DNA from: Alphaproteobacteria bacterium
Lineage (GTDB): Bacteria > Pseudomonadota > Alphaproteobacteria > CALKHQ01
Length of the DNA stretch: 64,000 nucleotides
Direction: 5' to 3'
NCBI GenBank assembly: GCA_965227515.1
Contig: CBDDFZ010000002.1
Coordinates: 1,216,001 to 1,280,000 of the forward strand
Positions 21,874 through 24,892 of this stretch are shown here, piece after piece. The notes under the pieces are model-generated. The model was not told where the DNA came from, made no database searches, and saw only the letters and a list, made by a program, of their open reading frames with translations. The position numbers and the translations under genes were made by a program. How positions within the stretch are numbered: position 1 is the stretch's first letter; every line of letters starts with the position of its first letter.

Positions 21874-22164
21874 ATGACCGAGACCACCACCGAACACGGC
21901 CACGATCACGAGGGCGAAGGCGAGGGCAAGCAGCTACTGCACCTGGTGCTGGGCGGCGAGCTGGTCAGTTCCCAGTCCACCGAGTTCAAGAACATCGACG
22001 AGATCGATATCGTCGGCGTCTTCCCGAACTATGCGACGGCCTACAAGGCCTGGCGCGGCAAGGCGATGTCGACCATCGACAACGCGATGACCCGCTACTT
22101 CATCGTCCACCTGCACCGCATGCTGGACCCGGAAACCGACACCACCCGCGGCGATCAGGACTGA
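21874..22164 (+). CDS. DUF4170 family protein
   Basis: LLHLVLGGEL..DIVGVFPNYATAYKAWR..DNAMTRYFIVHLHR; GGGAG RBS. Confidence 0.85.
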   Translation: MTETTTEHGHDHEGEGEGKQLLHLVLGGELVSSQSTEFKNIDEIDIVGVFPNYATAYKAWRGKAMSTIDNAMTRYFIVHLHRMLDPETDTTRGDQD

Positions 22165-22206
22165 CTGCAGGTCTACCCGGTCGGCAGCGGCTTTCACCCT
22201 CGCCAA

Positions 22207-22346
22207 TTGTCATCCTCGGCCGGAGCCCAAGTACATCTACTTGGGCGGAGCGCCGGGGATCCATTGCGCCGCTCGCGCGATGACAACGATGGATCCTCGA
22301 CGCGACGCGGCGAACAAGTTCGAACCGCGCCGGTCAAGGATGACAA
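22207..22346. repeat. TGTCATCC..GGATGACA palindromic repeat (CGTC-family REP doublet)
   Basis: Terminal inverted repeats ttgtcatcct/aggatgacaa; inner ggatccat/atggatcc pair. Confidence 0.75.
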
Positions 22347-22383
22347 GGGGGGTAGTGGCGGGCACTGAGTCTGCCGAGGCAAT

Positions 22384-22467
22384 CGTAGCCCGGGTGGAAC
22401 GGCGTGAAACCCGGGGACATACCTTCACCTCTCTGTGCCCCGGATTGCGCTGCGCTCCATCCGGGCT
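22384..22467. repeat. GTAG-family REP doublet interrupted by the IS110 element (remaining acg at 23888-23890)
   Basis: cgtagcccgg at 22384; removing the IS restores ccatccgggCTacg, its inverted partner. Confidence 0.85.
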
Positions 22468-22499
22468 TCTGTAACGGGCCATTGTTGGTCAATCCCTTT

Positions 22500-22670
22500 T
22501 TCGTCGTCCCGGCGCCTGGGTCATGCTTCTGTACGGGGTCGGCGCAGGGCCGCCGCCAAGATGGATATGCGAGGATCGGTCGGTCCAATCTACGGAAGCG
22601 TGCTCTCATGCGAGGCGACATCCCGGATGGCGGCCTGACCTGATCCATCGTCCCGGCGCGGGACGGCGCT
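22500..22670 (-). ncRNA. Putative bridge/seek RNA of the IS element (boundaries approximate)
   Basis: Structured region containing CCATCCGGG and CGTAG (target matches) and CCATCTT and TACAGAAG (circle-junction matches). Confidence 0.7.
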
Positions 22671-22731
22671 TGACGGGCCGGTGTCGGTGCCCGTCGAAGC
22701 TCGTGTGTCGGTTCTCCTTATGCCGCGGCCA

Positions 22732-23775
22732 TCATGCTGTCGCCATCGCCGGGCGCACCGGTCCGGCATGGTTGAACGGTGTGCCGTCAACCCACATCCG
22801 GTGCATGATGACGGCGAGCCGGCGCGCCAGCGCGACCTTCGCCTTCCTCATGCCCGCACGCCTGGCCAGCTTCATCGCCCAGCTCTTCAGCCAGCCGCCC
22901 TCGATCGGCCGGGTCAGAACCACGTGCGCCGCCTCATAGAGGGCCGAGCGCACATCGGCGTCTCCTACCTTCGATATCCGCCCCATCACCTCGCTCTCGC
23001 CCGACTGGCGCTTGGTCGGCGTCAGGCCGAAGTGCGCACCCACCAGGCGCGACGAGGCAAACCGCCCGGGGTCGTCCACTCCCGACAAGTAGGTCAGTCC
23101 GACAATGCTCCCCACGCCCGGCACCGTCATCAGCAGGCGAGCGCGATCGTCGGCCTGCGATGCCGCTCGGACCTGCCGGTCCAGCGCCGTGAACGATAGC
23201 AACAGGCCATCGCGTGCCGACAGCAGCGCCCCCGCCACCGCCTCCAGTACCGGATGCCCCGCCACAAGCTCCGAAATACGTGTCGAAAAGCTGCGCCTGG
23301 TGGTGTGCCCTACCTTCAGCCCGAAGTTCCGCAGCTGACCACGAAGGTGCATCTCAAGATCGTGCAGCTTCGCGCGGAGCTGGTCGCGACCCTTCAAAAG
23401 GGCCCGCATCTCCTGGGCCGCCAAAGACTTGCAGTGAACCGGCCGAAACCAGCCCACACGCATCAGCTGAGCAATCCCGCGTGCGTCCGAGCGGTCCGAC
23501 TTCACCGGCATCGTCGAAAGGGCTCGCGCAACATGACGCGTCTCCAGCAACTCAACCGAAAGACCGCCCTCGCTACATCCCCGCACAAGCCATTGCGACA
23601 ACGGCCCCGCCTCAAGACCAATCCGCTCAACCGAAATCCCCAAAGACCCAAACCACAACAACAAACCCGCCGGCGTGCTCGCAATACGAGCCTCGCAGAC
23701 AATCCCGCCCGCGCCGTCAACAACGCACACCGATGACCATTCCAAAGAAACGTCAATCCCGGCATAGTAGTTCAT
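22732..23775 (-). CDS. IS110 family transposase/recombinase (347 aa)
   Basis: GIDVS, GLEAG, KSDRSDA (DEDD RuvC-like), VPGVG, GLTPTKRQSG Ser motif, KAKVALARRL; GAGGAG RBS. Confidence 0.95.
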   Translation of the reverse strand: MNYYAGIDVSLEWSSVCVVDGAGGIVCEARIASTPAGLLLWFGSLGISVERIGLEAGPLSQWLVRGCSEGGLSVELLETRHVARALSTMPVKSDRSDARGIAQLMRVGWFRPVHCKSLAAQEMRALLKGRDQLRAKLHDLEMHLRGQLRNFGLKVGHTTRRSFSTRISELVAGHPVLEAVAGALLSARDGLLLSFTALDRQVRAASQADDRARLLMTVPGVGSIVGLTYLSGVDDPGRFASSRLVGAHFGLTPTKRQSGESEVMGRISKVGDADVRSALYEAAHVVLTRPIEGGWLKSWAMKLARRAGMRKAKVALARRLAVIMHRMWVDGTPFNHAGPVRPAMATA

Positions 23776-23905
23776 GGTCGTCTCTCCTCGATGTCTTGGA
23801 GCGGCAAACCCGACTCCGTGTATGACACCGACATCTTGAGGGACGACCACTCATGCAAGCCACCAAACGAGGGCCGTTAGCCCATCTACGCAGTCAGCAG
23901 CGGGC

Positions 23906-24892
23906 TCAACCGTCCCCCGGCCACGGGCCGGCCTGGGCCTCCAGCGCCTCATAGTCGATATCGGGCTCATGCACCGCGCGGATACGGGCGAACTCCCGGC
24001 CCTTGACCAGCGCGGTCAGCGCGCGGTTGTAGGGCACGTCGATCCCCAGCGCCTCTGCCTCGCGCACCAGCGCGCCGTTCAGCGCATTGATCTCGGTCCG
24101 CCGCCCGGCGTCGACATGCTGCTGCATCGACGGGCGCGAGAACTTGGTCCAGCAATGCCGCTTGATGGTGCTGCGGATGTCCTTGTCCGGGATGTCGAGC
24201 CCCTTGGCGGCAACCACGGCGAGCGCCTCGTCGATGATCCGGTCCTGGAAGTCGTTCACATCGGGCTGCCGGGCCAGTTCGCCGAGCCGGAGCCCGGTCG
24301 CGGCGCAGATCGGGTTGATGGCGATGTTGAGCAGGAACTTCTGCCAGATCACCGCCATGATGTCGGGGCTGATGGAGGTGGGAAAGCCTGCCGCATCCAG
24401 CATCGCCTTCACAGTCGCGGCGCGGTCCGTTGACCGCCCGTCCAGTTCGCCGATGGTGGTGGGGCCCTGGTGGGTCTGGGTCACCTGGCCCGGTCCGCGC
24501 ACCATGAAGCTGGACATGCTGGACCCGCCCAGCACCCGCGCCGCGCCGAGCACCTCGACCAGCGCCTCGACATTGCCGATGCCGTTCTGCAGCGTCAGCG
24601 CGAACCCGTCCGGCGCCAGCACCTGTGCCGCGGTCATGGCGGCATCGGCGCTGTGGTTGGCATCGACCGTCACGATGGCGAGGTCGGCGGGCGGCGCCTC
24701 GGCGGGGTCGGCGTAGGCCGCCATCGCGACCGTGTGCGCGCCCGGTACGCCGTCCAGCCGCAGCCCGTCGCGGTTGATCGCCGCGACGTGGTCGGCCAAC
24801 ACATCGATCAGTGTCACGTCGACACCGCTCAACGCCAAGCGCGCGCCATAGCTGCCGCCCAAGGCCCCCGCGCCGATCACGCATACCCGCAT
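23906..24892 (-). CDS. 2-dehydropantoate 2-reductase family protein
   Basis: IGAGALG, TLQNGIG, WQKFLLNIAINP, SMQQH..GRRTEI..NG. Confidence 0.88.
   Translation of the reverse strand: MRVCVIGAGALGGSYGARLALSGVDVTLIDVLADHVAAINRDGLRLDGVPGAHTVAMAAYADPAEAPPADLAIVTVDANHSADAAMTAAQVLAPDGFALTLQNGIGNVEALVEVLGAARVLGGSSMSSFMVRGPGQVTQTHQGPTTIGELDGRSTDRAATVKAMLDAAGFPTSISPDIMAVIWQKFLLNIAINPICAATGLRLGELARQPDVNDFQDRIIDEALAVVAAKGLDIPDKDIRSTIKRHCWTKFSRPSMQQHVDAGRRTEINALNGALVREAEALGIDVPYNRALTALVKGREFARIRAVHEPDIDYEALEAQAGPWPGDG

What the first reader, a model, noticed from the sequence alone, without database searches (positions are those of the whole stretch)
22500..22670. Readable bridge/seek RNA with guides for both target and donor in the IS 3' end
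Seen: on the transposase (minus) strand, the 3' non-coding end has a stem (ggatc..gatcc, 22573-22646) enclosing CCATCCGGG (+ 22622-30), identical to the 9 nt left of the insertion core. After an inner hairpin comes CGTAG (+ 22590-94), the reverse complement of CTacg right of the core. Further along are CCATCTT (+ 22558-64) and TACAGAAG (+ 22526-33), flanking a cggcg/cgccg hairpin; they match the two sides of the predicted circle junction cccatCTtctgta. Known: IS110/IS1111 recombinases use a bispecific ncRNA with separate target- and donor-binding loops. Inference: this is a complete, naturally programmed RNA-guided recombinase aimed at an alphaproteobacterial REP. The left target guide mismatches the core C (reads GGGAT rather than GGGCT), which may indicate a variant core-pairing rule.
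Basis: partly seen in the sequence, partly recalled or inferred. Interest (0 to 1): 0.92.

Follow-up and report, generated by a model that had tools for sequence, protein, structure and literature searches.

The report
Bridge RNA in an IS1111-type element
The non-coding tail of a jumping gene present in 20 copies in this genome encodes a guide RNA that reads both its landing site and its own ends, a very clear but ordinary example of the RNA-guided 'bridge' recombinases described in 2024.

Summary
The element (window 22468-23887, transposase on the minus strand) is an IS110-family insertion sequence of the IS1111 type. It has 20 intact copies in this genome, all in one REP-like repeat. Its 3' non-coding end holds a 165-nt RNA domain (minus strand, 22666 to 22502). 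All four guides track their DNA partners across homologues. The left target guide shares on average 7.75 consecutive bases with its own flank, against 3.88 for swapped flanks (0 of 20000 permutations as high). Within this genome, a sublineage with one changed guide base sits only in the REP variant carrying the matching change (7 of 7). No RNA data were available. This is a new, very readable member of a known class (bridge RNA / seekRNA), not a new mechanism. The core mismatch in the left target guide is real and shared by the closest relatives, but more distant relatives pair the whole core.

The parts
22468..23887 (-). Whole insertion sequence, 1420 bp counting one copy of the CT/AG core; 20 full copies in the genome
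   Evidence: all copies share these boundaries; flanks differ beyond the REP unit; in run X3 a repeat contig spans 22464-23889.
22735..23775 (-). Transposase/recombinase gene, 347 aa (stop 22732-22734)
   Evidence: PF01548 DEDD_Tnp_IS110 (E 9.6e-13) and PF02371 Transposase_20 (E 2.4e-20); open in 20 of 20 copies (345-347 aa).
22502..22666 (-). Bridge/seek RNA domain, about 165 nt, closed by a two-part long-range helix P1 (5' strand 22664-22652, 3' strand 22519-22506)
   Evidence: the P1 duplex forms in 26 of 26 homologues, mean -21.6 kcal/mol against -16.2 +/- 0.65 for swapped partners (0 of 20000); 4 of 165 variable sites among 20 copies, against 131 of 1044 in the gene.
22573..22646 (-). Target-binding arm: outer stem P2 (22646-22631 with 22587-22573) enclosing the target loop and the inner hairpin P3 (about 22619-22598)
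   Evidence: P2 89.2% of cells paired, 8 of 14 pairs with changes on both sides; P3 92.3% paired.
22622..22630 (-). Left target guide CCAUCCGGG. It reads like the + strand left of the core, so it pairs with the opposite strand. The next two bases AU (22621-22620) face the core.
22590..22594 (-). Right target guide CGUAG, complementary to + strand CT+ACG; followed by an invariant AU (22589-22588) at the handshake position
   Evidence: own-flank suffix match 4.47 against 2.66 +/- 0.22, 0 of 20000; AGAU invariant in 26 of 26.
22558..22564 (-). Left donor guide CCAUCUU, in the junction between P2 and P4
   Evidence: 6.16 against 5.36 +/- 0.19, 0 of 20000; n = 19.
22535..22557 (-). Hairpin P4 between the two donor guides
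   Evidence: 94.5% of cells paired, 5 of 7 pairs with changes on both sides (one pair is GC in 13 and AU in 13 sequences).
22526..22533 (-). Right donor guide UACAGAAG, between P4 and the 3' strand of P1; followed by CA (22525-22524) at the handshake position
   Evidence: 7.29 against 6.0 +/- 0.23, 0 of 20000; n = 24.
22487..22492 (-). TTGACC, likely -35 box of a promoter completed only when the IS ends are joined
   Evidence: TTGACN in 22 of 24 homologues, 17 nt (19) or 18 nt (3) before the hexamer that would span the joined ends.
22472..22480 (.). Subterminal inverted repeat, left copy (TAACGGGCC); partner at 23871-23879
   Evidence: 8 of 9 bases match in the window; 9 of 9 in most homologues.
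22436..22467 (+). REP-like target unit up to and including the CT core; the rest of the target (ACG) is at 23888-23890
   Evidence: 83 empty sites of the pattern CCAYCCRGGCTAC in the genome; the rejoined unit folds as a hairpin (-15.4 kcal/mol).

Best explanation
This is an active IS1111-type member of the IS110 family. Its 3' non-coding end encodes a bispecific guide RNA (bridge RNA, also called long seekRNA). The RNA folds into a three-way junction closed by helix P1. One arm (P2-loop-P3) is the target-binding loop. Its 5' side (CCAUCCGGG) pairs with one strand of the REP target left of the CT core, and its 3' side (CGUAG) pairs with the other strand across the core and to its right. The two donor guides (CCAUCUU and UACAGAAG) lie in the single-stranded joints of the junction on either side of hairpin P4. 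They pair in the same geometry with the two ends of the excised, circularised element. Inferred by analogy with IS621, the DEDD/serine recombinase bound to this RNA brings circle and target together and exchanges strands at the CT core, inserting the element without a duplication. Shown here: element boundaries, copy number, conserved structure, position of the guides in unpaired regions, and covariation of guides with DNA partners. Inferred: that the RNA is transcribed (probably from a promoter formed at the joined ends, through the gene), that it is processed and bound by the protein, and the chemistry.
For: (1) Family: Pfam PF01548 and PF02371; the GLTPTKRQSG motif in the translation; 347 aa; 264-nt 3' against 110-nt 5' non-coding end; subterminal inverted repeats. 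BLASTP to the IS4321 transposase gives 26% identity over residues 52-323, E 2e-16, whereas IS621 and ISCro4 match significantly only in the C-terminal part. (2) Activity: 20 full copies with open reading frames, all in the same place in a REP unit. (3) Structure: over 26 homologues, 86.4% of cells are paired against 75.9% in shuffles, and 20 pairs change on both sides against 12.0 (0 of 500 shuffles as high). Slid controls give 36-54%. P1 is supported in 26 of 26. (4) Guides are unpaired in the consensus, and the guide-guide pairings of the single-sequence fold are at shuffle level. (5) Covariation with DNA: the longest shared run between the left target guide and its own flank averages 7.75, against 3.88 +/- 0.30, and is at least 7 in 17 of 24. 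The right target, left donor and right donor guides also exceed all 20000 permutations. (6) Natural retargeting within this genome. Copies with guide ...CCGGG sit in ...CCGGG targets in 11 of 13. Copies with ...CCAGG sit in ...CCAGG targets in 7 of 7 (Fisher p 4.6e-4). The exact-match variant CCATCCGGGCT is only 10 of 83 empty sites, yet holds 9 of 13 subfamily-1 copies. (7) The RNA domain is the most conserved part of the element: 4 of 165 variable sites against 131 of 1044 in the gene; within subfamily 1, 0 of 165 against 25 of 1044. (8) The geometry (5' guide with the strand opposite the left half, 8-9 nt; 3' guide with the other strand of core plus right half, 4-7 nt) equals that described for IS621 (PMC11208160, passages). 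The order relative to the gene is the one reported for IS1111 elements (PMC11187229, abstract and section 9).
Against: There is no direct evidence that the RNA exists: no RNA run was listed. No sigma-70-like promoter was found in 22400-23950 (0 found). No Rfam family matched (best E 2.4, unrelated). The single-sequence fold is not more stable than shuffles (z -1.2), and it pairs 7 of 9 bases of the left target guide and 6 of 7 of the left donor guide. In the single sequence the 5-mer and 7-mer matches are within chance. Among 24 homologues, 3 left target guides clearly do not fit their own flank (L035, L059, L096) and L033 fits only out of register. Donor guides and termini vary little, so their permutation result leans on a few clade-level changes and on relatedness. 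The left target guide does not pair with the first core base, whereas for IS621 pairing with both strands of the core was 'strongly preferred' (PMC11208160, passage).
Confidence: 0.87

Rival explanations
1. Only the target loop is an RNA guide (a seekRNA in the narrow sense). The element's ends would be recognised by the protein through the subterminal inverted repeats. The two 'donor guides' would then be conserved scaffold or protein-binding sequence that resembles the termini for other reasons.
For: The donor segments vary little, and their excess over permutations is small (6.16 against 5.36; 7.29 against 6.0). The left donor guide has mismatches to its terminus in L034, L035, L044 and the window itself beyond 7 nt. 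The seekRNA paper raises the possibility that end recognition differs in the IS1111 family (PMC11187229, section 6). The experimentally dominant IS1111 RNAs are short (82-96 nt; PMC13604230 Table 1), about the size of the target arm alone.
Against: Where termini differ between clades, the guides differ with them. ACAGAAG, AGAGAAG and AGCGAAG termini go with matching right donor guides. ATGGGG, ATGCCG and ATGGTG termini go with CCCCAU, GGCAU and CACCAU in the left donor guide. The segments lie in unpaired joints of a covarying junction, in the same strand geometry as the target guides. Durrant et al. report donor-binding bases in a multiloop for many IS1111 orthologues (PMC11208160, passage).
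Confidence: 0.07
2. The region is a structured 3' untranslated region or a regulatory small RNA of the transposase gene (stability, termination or translational control). This was once proposed for sRNAs of ISPpu9. It would have no guide function.
For: It lies directly after the stop codon on the same strand, and no own promoter was found. ISPpu9 carries a small-RNA gene downstream of its transposase gene that is not needed for transposition (PMC12288879, abstract).
Against: A regulatory structure gives no reason for two loop segments to change in step with unrelated insertion sites across 24 elements, or with the REP variant within one genome. There is no U-tract terminator on the minus strand.
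Confidence: 0.03
3. The matches are DNA-level remnants with no RNA involved: internal copies of end and target sequences left by nested or abortive insertions, or used as protein-binding sites.
For: The right donor guide is an exact repeat of the last 8 bases of the element on the same strand.
Against: Remnants would not sit at fixed positions of a conserved, covarying RNA-type structure in 26 diverged elements. They would not be the least variable part of the element, and they would not be renewed for each new target.
Confidence: 0.03

Closest known systems
IS1111-family seekRNAs / bridge RNAs (ISEc11, ISPa11, ISKpn4; predicted in 93.0% of ISfinder IS1111 elements)
   Same: The long non-coding region lies downstream of the gene. 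There are subterminal inverted repeats. The guide complementary to the gene-sense strand lies 5' of the guide complementary to the other strand. The predicted sizes (about 74-nt target arm, about 165-nt closed domain) resemble the reported short (82-96 nt) and long (148-172 nt) RNAs. Donor bases sit in a multiloop. ISPa11 also targets a REP. Sources: PMC11187229 sections 6, 8, 9; PMC11208160 passages; PMC13604230 Table 1.
   Different: The host group differs (relatives here are mostly alphaproteobacterial), as do the target and the core. Protein identity to the one IS1111-family member I could compare (IS4321) is only 26%. The RNA here is predicted, not sequenced. I could not check whether this element or its clade is in ISfinder or in the papers' supplementary tables (supplements closed).
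IS621 bridge RNA (IS110 group; structures 8wt6 and others)
   Same: The four-guide logic and strand geometry are the same, as is the CT core. The target is the end of a REP: the E. coli REP queries quoted in PMC11208160 Methods end in ...GGCCTACG, and here ...GGGCTACG. A mismatch at target position 4 is tolerated as a wobble (rG:dT there; rU:dG would form here at the C/T position). Two bases after each 3' guide sit where the handshake guides lie (PMC11208158 passages).
   Different: Here the RNA is 3' of the gene rather than 5', and the gene lies on the opposite strand relative to the guide/target geometry. The donor guides are in a three-way junction, not an internal loop. The left target guide does not pair with core C. 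The proteins match significantly only in the C-terminal domain (E 1e-10).
ISPpu9 with Ssr9 (Pseudomonas putida)
   Same: It is an IS110-family element inserted in REPs at an AG/CT dinucleotide, with a small-RNA gene downstream of the transposase gene (PMC12288879, abstract and passages).
   Different: ISPpu9 belongs to the IS110 group and its bridge RNA is upstream. Ssr9 is dispensable and moves as its own module. Here the downstream RNA carries the guides, and no solo copy exists in this genome: 21 hits, of which 20 lie in full copies and 1 in the deleted copy.

Membership tests
IS110 family, IS1111 group (insertion sequence) | DEDD (RuvC-like) N-terminal domain plus PF02371 C-terminal domain | tested here: met
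   PF01548 residues 5-150 (48.6 bits, cut-off 29); PF02371 residues 212-287 (73.2 bits, cut-off 21.3).
IS110 family, IS1111 group (insertion sequence) | C-terminal GL-P----S(t)G motif and a length of 330-350 aa (as defined in PMC11187229 section 6) | tested here: met
   GLTPTKRQSG is present in the translation; the protein is 347 aa.
IS110 family, IS1111 group (insertion sequence) | Subterminal inverted repeats of 7-17 bp | tested here: met
   TAACGG(G/C)CC, 8 of 9, starting 5 and 7 bases from the ends. It is perfect at 9 bp in most homologues.
IS110 family, IS1111 group (insertion sequence) | The longer non-coding region lies downstream of the transposase gene | tested here: met
   264 nt downstream against 110 nt upstream.
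IS110 family, IS1111 group (insertion sequence) | Transposase related over its full length to IS1111-family transposases, and placed in that clade | tested here: inconclusive
   IS4321 transposase: 26% identity over 278 aa, E 2e-16. IS621 and ISCro4 match significantly only in the C-terminal part. No tree with ISfinder references was built.
IS110 family, IS1111 group (insertion sequence) | Insertion at one specific sequence, with only a shared core and no target duplication | tested here: met
   20 of 20 copies lie between ...GGCT and AC(G) of a REP unit; the CT is shared.
Bridge RNA / seekRNA | Conserved secondary structure with the guide segments in loops | tested here: met
Bridge RNA / seekRNA | Target guides: the 5' segment matches one strand left of the core (8-9 nt), the 3' segment the other strand across the core and to its right (4-7 nt), and both covary with insertion sites | tested here: met
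   9 nt and 5 nt in the window; permutation tests; within-genome sublineages.
Bridge RNA / seekRNA | Donor guides match the joined ends of the element in the same geometry | tested here: met
   7 nt and 8 nt. Covariation is present but rests on few changes.
Bridge RNA / seekRNA | [quoted passage not shown] | tested here: not met
   The right target, left donor and right donor guides include it. The left target guide has AU where CU would pair. Among 19 homologues with a clear register, 11 have CU. The left donor guide has CU only in the window (1 of 19).
Bridge RNA / seekRNA | The RNA is transcribed, bound by the recombinase and required for transposition | not testable with these tools
   No RNA holder was listed.
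Bridge RNA / seekRNA | Match to a curated RNA family model | tested here: not met
   Rfam 15 scan of 22000-24400 at E up to 10 gave only two unrelated weak hits. Either no Rfam model covers this RNA, or none reaches it.

The most novel reading that the evidence does not exclude
In this IS1111 clade the 5'-side guides need not pair with the core. The left target guide faces the core with AU, AA, UC, CA or CC in the window's closest relatives. The left donor guide faces it with CA, GG, GC, GA or AA in 18 of 19 elements. The AG of both 3'-side guides is invariant. This would mean strand-exchange licensing depends on core pairing with only one DNA strand, unlike IS621. In addition, two co-resident sublineages differing by one guide base have divided the REP variants of one genome between them. 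That would be retargeting by single-base guide mutation caught in nature.
Probability: 0.35. Interest if true: 0.5.

Novelty: new member of a known kind. Interest (0 to 1): 0.33.

Why it matters
It adds a well-documented natural example to the IS1111 branch of RNA-guided recombinases, for which no structure was found in the PDB sequence search or in my two paper searches, and for which little donor-recognition data turned up there. The example comes with 26 diverged RNAs, defined targets and donors, and a covariation-supported three-way-junction model. The two sublineages in one genome, which differ by one guide base and occupy the matching REP variants, show how such elements change target in nature. 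They also offer a ready-made pair for testing specificity. The variable core pairing of the 5'-side guides marks a point where the IS621 rules may not transfer. None of this changes the known picture of the mechanism.

Tried and rejected
Rfam scan at E up to 10: only two unrelated weak hits.

Promoter and terminator scan of 22400-23950: 0 promoter-like sites. The two terminator-like sites are on the + strand at the IS end and are no more than shuffles give.

RNA evidence: no RNA holder listed, so expression could not be examined.

Laying contigs of runs X1-X4 on 22000-24400: no contig joins across the element at this locus, so I obtained no empty-site allele and no circle junction. The one joint listed (22834 to 24261, one contig, 23 letters on the short side) is not at the element's ends, and I set it aside as spurious.

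Single-sequence folding: uninformative on its own (z -1.2), and it pairs the guides with each other. I rejected that fold as the functional one because those pairs are at shuffle level in homologues.

The local hairpin GUCCC...GGGAC that RNAalifold prefers was set aside in favour of the long-range helix P1. P1 shows compensatory changes between clades and forms in 26 of 26. Both cannot form at once, and a switch between them is not excluded.

Plasmid search: 230 records with relatives, the best 68% identical and annotated only as 'IS110 family transposase', so no name for this element was obtained.

Rows dropped before counts:
- Of 38 loci with a homologous 3' end at E up to 1e-4, 25 plus the window went into alignment A1.
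- Near-identical copies (97% or more) were removed, and L049 (close to L050) was left out by hand.
- L099 was dropped because it lacks the 5' half.
- L032 was added back because it differs from L031 in the guide.
- L030 and L046 have no recognisable 3' terminus. Seven loci have no 5' terminus in the fetched DNA. The 5' hit in L096 was rejected as a false pattern match. This gives n = 24 and n = 19.
- L021/L022 (the deleted copy) was left out of the subfamily counts.

Errors corrected:
- One search used coordinates two bases off and included the terminus itself. It was redone.
- The pattern missed the ACAGAAG termini (fixed).
- The handshake table took the wrong GAAG in one clade (fixed).

Supplementary files of the papers are closed, so I could not see whether this element or its clade is among the bridge RNAs in Durrant et al.'s supplementary tables.

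Full report
WHAT IS THERE. The finding lies in the 3' non-coding end of an insertion sequence that spans window 22468-23887 (1420 bp counting one copy of the core). Its only long reading frame is on the minus strand (22735-23775, 347 aa). It carries the two Pfam domains of IS110-family transposases: PF01548 (DEDD_Tnp_IS110) and PF02371. On the + strand the left flank ends in CCATCCGGG followed by CT, and the element begins TCTGTAAC. The element ends in GCCCAT followed by CT, and the right flank begins ACG.

COPIES AND TARGET. The window's genome (5.5 Mb, two contigs) holds 20 full copies, one internally deleted copy, and 7 further short matches to the 28-31-nt flank alone. All 20 copies sit at the same place in a REP-like palindromic unit, between ...GGCT and AC(G). 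The strict pattern CCAYCCRGGCTAC occurs 83 more times without an insertion. All 20 reading frames are open. In run X1 the element has a contig depth of about 258, against about 12 for the flanks. That fits a high copy number, though contig depth is a rough measure.

WHICH FAMILY. These features are the ones the seekRNA paper uses to define the IS1111 type, as opposed to the IS110 type (PMC11187229, section 6):
- The long non-coding region is downstream of the gene (264 nt against 110 nt).
- The ends carry subterminal inverted repeats: TAACGGGCC-type, 8 of 9 in the window and 9 of 9 in most relatives.
- The protein has the motif GLTPTKRQSG and is 347 aa long.
The protein aligns with the IS4321 transposase of plasmid R751 over residues 52-323 (26% identity, E 2e-16). 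With the solved IS621 and ISCro4 proteins only the C-terminal part matches significantly. I did not build a tree, so clade membership is likely but not proven.

THE RNA STRUCTURE. A scan of one genome per species found 75 loci encoding relatives at 37-69% protein identity. In 38 of them the region after the stop codon is alignable at the DNA level to the window's (E up to 1e-4). I aligned 25 non-redundant ones with the window (A1; the rows dropped are listed under Tried and rejected).

RNAalifold finds an outer stem and an inner hairpin around the two target segments, and a hairpin between the two donor segments. It leaves all four guide segments unpaired. I proposed a four-helix structure and counted its pairs:
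- 86.4% of cells are paired, against 75.9 +/- 0.8% in shuffles.
- 20 pairs change on both sides, against 12.0 +/- 1.8.
- The covariation score is 0.358 against 0.181. None of 500 shuffles reaches the observed value on these three measures (for further pair types, 4 of 500 do).
- Sliding the partners by 1-3 columns drops pairing to 36-54%.

The closing helix P1 is misaligned by MAFFT in the distant clade, so I tested it by duplex folding. It forms in 26 of 26 sequences. The mean energy is -21.6 kcal/mol, against -16.2 +/- 0.65 when 5' and 3' strands are swapped between sequences (0 of 20000).

The RNA is thus a three-way junction of about 165 nt (minus strand, 22666 to 22502):
- P1 closes the junction.
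- The arm P2-loop-P3 carries the target guides.
- Hairpin P4 separates the two donor guides, which lie in the single-stranded joints.
This is what Durrant et al. describe for many IS1111 orthologues: donor-binding nucleotides in a multiloop (PMC11208160, passage).

A RESULT AGAINST, AND ITS RESOLUTION. The thermodynamic fold of the window's RNA alone is no more stable than shuffles (z -1.2). It pairs 7 of 9 bases of the left target guide and 6 of 7 of the left donor guide, mostly with the opposite guide. Counted over the 26 homologues, however, those pairs are at chance: 37.5% paired against 37.7% in shuffles, with 297 of 500 shuffles as high and slid controls equal. Some complementarity between the two guides of a loop is expected anyway, because both cover the core.

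DO THE GUIDES FOLLOW THE DNA? For each element I located both ends by the conserved termini. I then compared each guide window with its own flank or terminus, and with those of the other elements:
- Left target guide: mean longest shared run 7.75 with its own flank, against 3.88 +/- 0.30 after permutation (n = 24). The run is at least 7 in 17 of 24.
- Right target guide: 4.47 against 2.66 +/- 0.22 (n = 19; 2 of these bases are the invariant AG).
- Left donor guide: 6.16 against 5.36 +/- 0.19 (n = 19).
- Right donor guide: 7.29 against 6.0 +/- 0.23 (n = 24).
No permutation out of 20000 reached the observed value in any of the four. Targets differ even between close relatives. For example, L031 and L032 differ by one guide base and by the same base in the target.

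The donor result rests on fewer changes: ACAGAAG, AGAGAAG and AGCGAAG termini, and ATGGGG, ATGCCG and ATGGTG termini, each with matching guide changes. Relatedness inflates such tests. Misfits: L035 and L059 carry a left target guide that does not fit their own flank but fits the guide of a sibling copy. L096 does not fit. L033 fits only out of register.

A NATURAL EXPERIMENT IN THIS GENOME. The 20 copies form two sublineages. Thirteen have the guide ending CCGGG. Seven have CCAGG, a change at 22624.
- The first group sits in targets ending CCGGG in 11 of 13 cases, 9 of them an exact 8-9-base match.
- The second group sits in targets ending CCAGG in 7 of 7 (Fisher p 4.6e-4).
- The exactly matching variant CCATCCGGGCT makes up only 10 of the 83 empty sites.
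- The frequent C at target position 4 would face the guide's U as a U:G wobble. This recalls the tolerated position-4 mismatch of IS621 (PMC11208160, passage).

Among the 20 copies, the RNA domain has 4 variable sites in 165, against 131 in 1044 for the gene. Within the first sublineage the figures are 0 in 165 against 25 in 1044. The four variable sites are the guide base, two loop bases, and a C-to-U change that keeps a P4 pair. Run X3, from another organism by its code, holds the element as a repeat contig with the CCAGG-type guide.

HOW IT WORKS (INFERRED). The strand geometry is that of IS621. The 5' segment of each loop reads like the strand written left-core-right, and so pairs with its complement. 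The 3' segment is complementary to core plus right half (PMC11208160, passages). Relative to the gene, the order is the one reported for IS1111 elements (PMC11187229, abstract and section 9).

By analogy, the recombinase-RNA complex pairs with the excised circle and with the REP target, and exchanges strands at CT. The two bases after the right target guide (AU, invariant in 26 of 26) are complementary to the last two bases of the element's right end. That is where IS621's handshake guide pairs after strand exchange (PMC11208158, passages). The base after the right donor guide pairs with the target base next to the core in 14 of 24 elements. It is A in exactly the 3 elements whose target has T there (Fisher p 0.005), but two of those three are sister copies.

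Transcription probably starts at a promoter formed only when the ends are joined. TTGACN lies 17 nt (19 cases) or 18 nt (3 cases) before the hexamer that would span the junction, in 22 of 24 elements. No promoter was found inside the element. This agrees with what is reported for ISEc11 (PMC11187229, section 8). The predicted sizes, about 74 nt for the target arm and about 165 nt for the closed domain, resemble the short and long RNAs sequenced for IS1111 members (PMC13604230, Table 1).

THE CORE MISMATCH. This is real and is not a defect of one copy: all 20 copies have it. The closest relatives have AU, AA, UC, CA or CC at these two positions. 11 of 19 elements with a clear register, mostly more distant, have CU. 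The left donor guide pairs with the whole core only in the window (1 of 19). The AG of both 3'-side guides is invariant. For IS621, pairing with both strands of the core was strongly preferred (PMC11208160, passage). So the rule may be looser here, but only an assay can tell.

COMPARISON AND VERDICT. Every element of the interpretation has a published counterpart: bridge RNAs predicted in the right end of 93.0% of IS1111 elements, multiloop donor guides, seekRNAs co-purifying with IS1111 transposases, REP targeting, and junction promoters. My two literature searches found no paper on this particular element or clade. I saw listings and abstracts only for the papers not named above. The best DNA match among 72,556 plasmids is 68% identical and unnamed. 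I therefore file it as a new, unusually well-supported member of a known kind, with moderate interest. What is missing is direct evidence for the RNA.

Noticed in passing
window 22487-22492 (minus strand), together with the element's two ends: TTGACC lies 17 nt before the hexamer that would be formed by the last two bases of the element, the core and the first two bases of the other end. TTGACN at 17-18 nt is kept in 22 of 24 homologues. This looks like a junction promoter (Pjunc) active only in the circular form.
   Followed up: partly
L035 (bRNA 2602-2760) and L059 (bRNA 2595-2763): These two copies carry a left target guide that does not fit their own flank (longest runs of 4), while the flank fits the guide of a sibling copy from the same assembly or clade (L034; L058/L053/L057). 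In L059 the right target guide still fits its flank over 8 bases. Either the RNA acted in trans, or the guide mutated after insertion.
   Followed up: no
L043:2599-2805 and L043:2852-3058: The RNA-coding region occurs twice, 253 nt apart. The second copy starts right after the element's terminus. It may be a tandem or solo RNA module, reminiscent of the mobile ssr9 module of ISPpu9.
   Followed up: no
G000:C1:998352-999205 (L021/L022): One copy has an internal deletion covering positions 149-729 of the 1481-base query window 22440-23920. The deletion removes the target-binding arm and the 3' part of the gene. Only the donor half of the RNA domain remains.
   Followed up: partly
window 22386-22398 and the left flanks of other copies: An unoccupied REP unit in the opposite orientation (GTAGCCCGGGTGG) lies about 60 nt from the occupied one. 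Many other copies show the same arrangement. The element therefore inserts into one unit of inverted REP pairs (BIME/REPIN-like).
   Followed up: no
window 22524-22525 and 22588-22589 (minus strand): The two bases after each 3'-side guide behave like IS621's handshake guides. AU after the right target guide is invariant and complementary to the end of the donor's left half. The base after the right donor guide pairs with the target base next to the core in 14 of 24 elements, and is A only where the target has T (3 of 3).
   Followed up: partly
window 22647-22651 (minus strand; ACGAU between P1 and P2) and 22631-22636: The joint GGGACGAUGG, and the bases AGGCCG just before the left target guide, are nearly invariant across the 26 homologues although unpaired or at helix ends. 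They are candidates for protein contacts.
   Followed up: no
window 22624, run X3: A run labelled as another organism holds the element as a repeat contig (22464-23889; depth 34.8 against about 3-4 for flanks). It has the CCAGG-type guide and the other subfamily-2 changes at 22547 and 22608.
   Followed up: no
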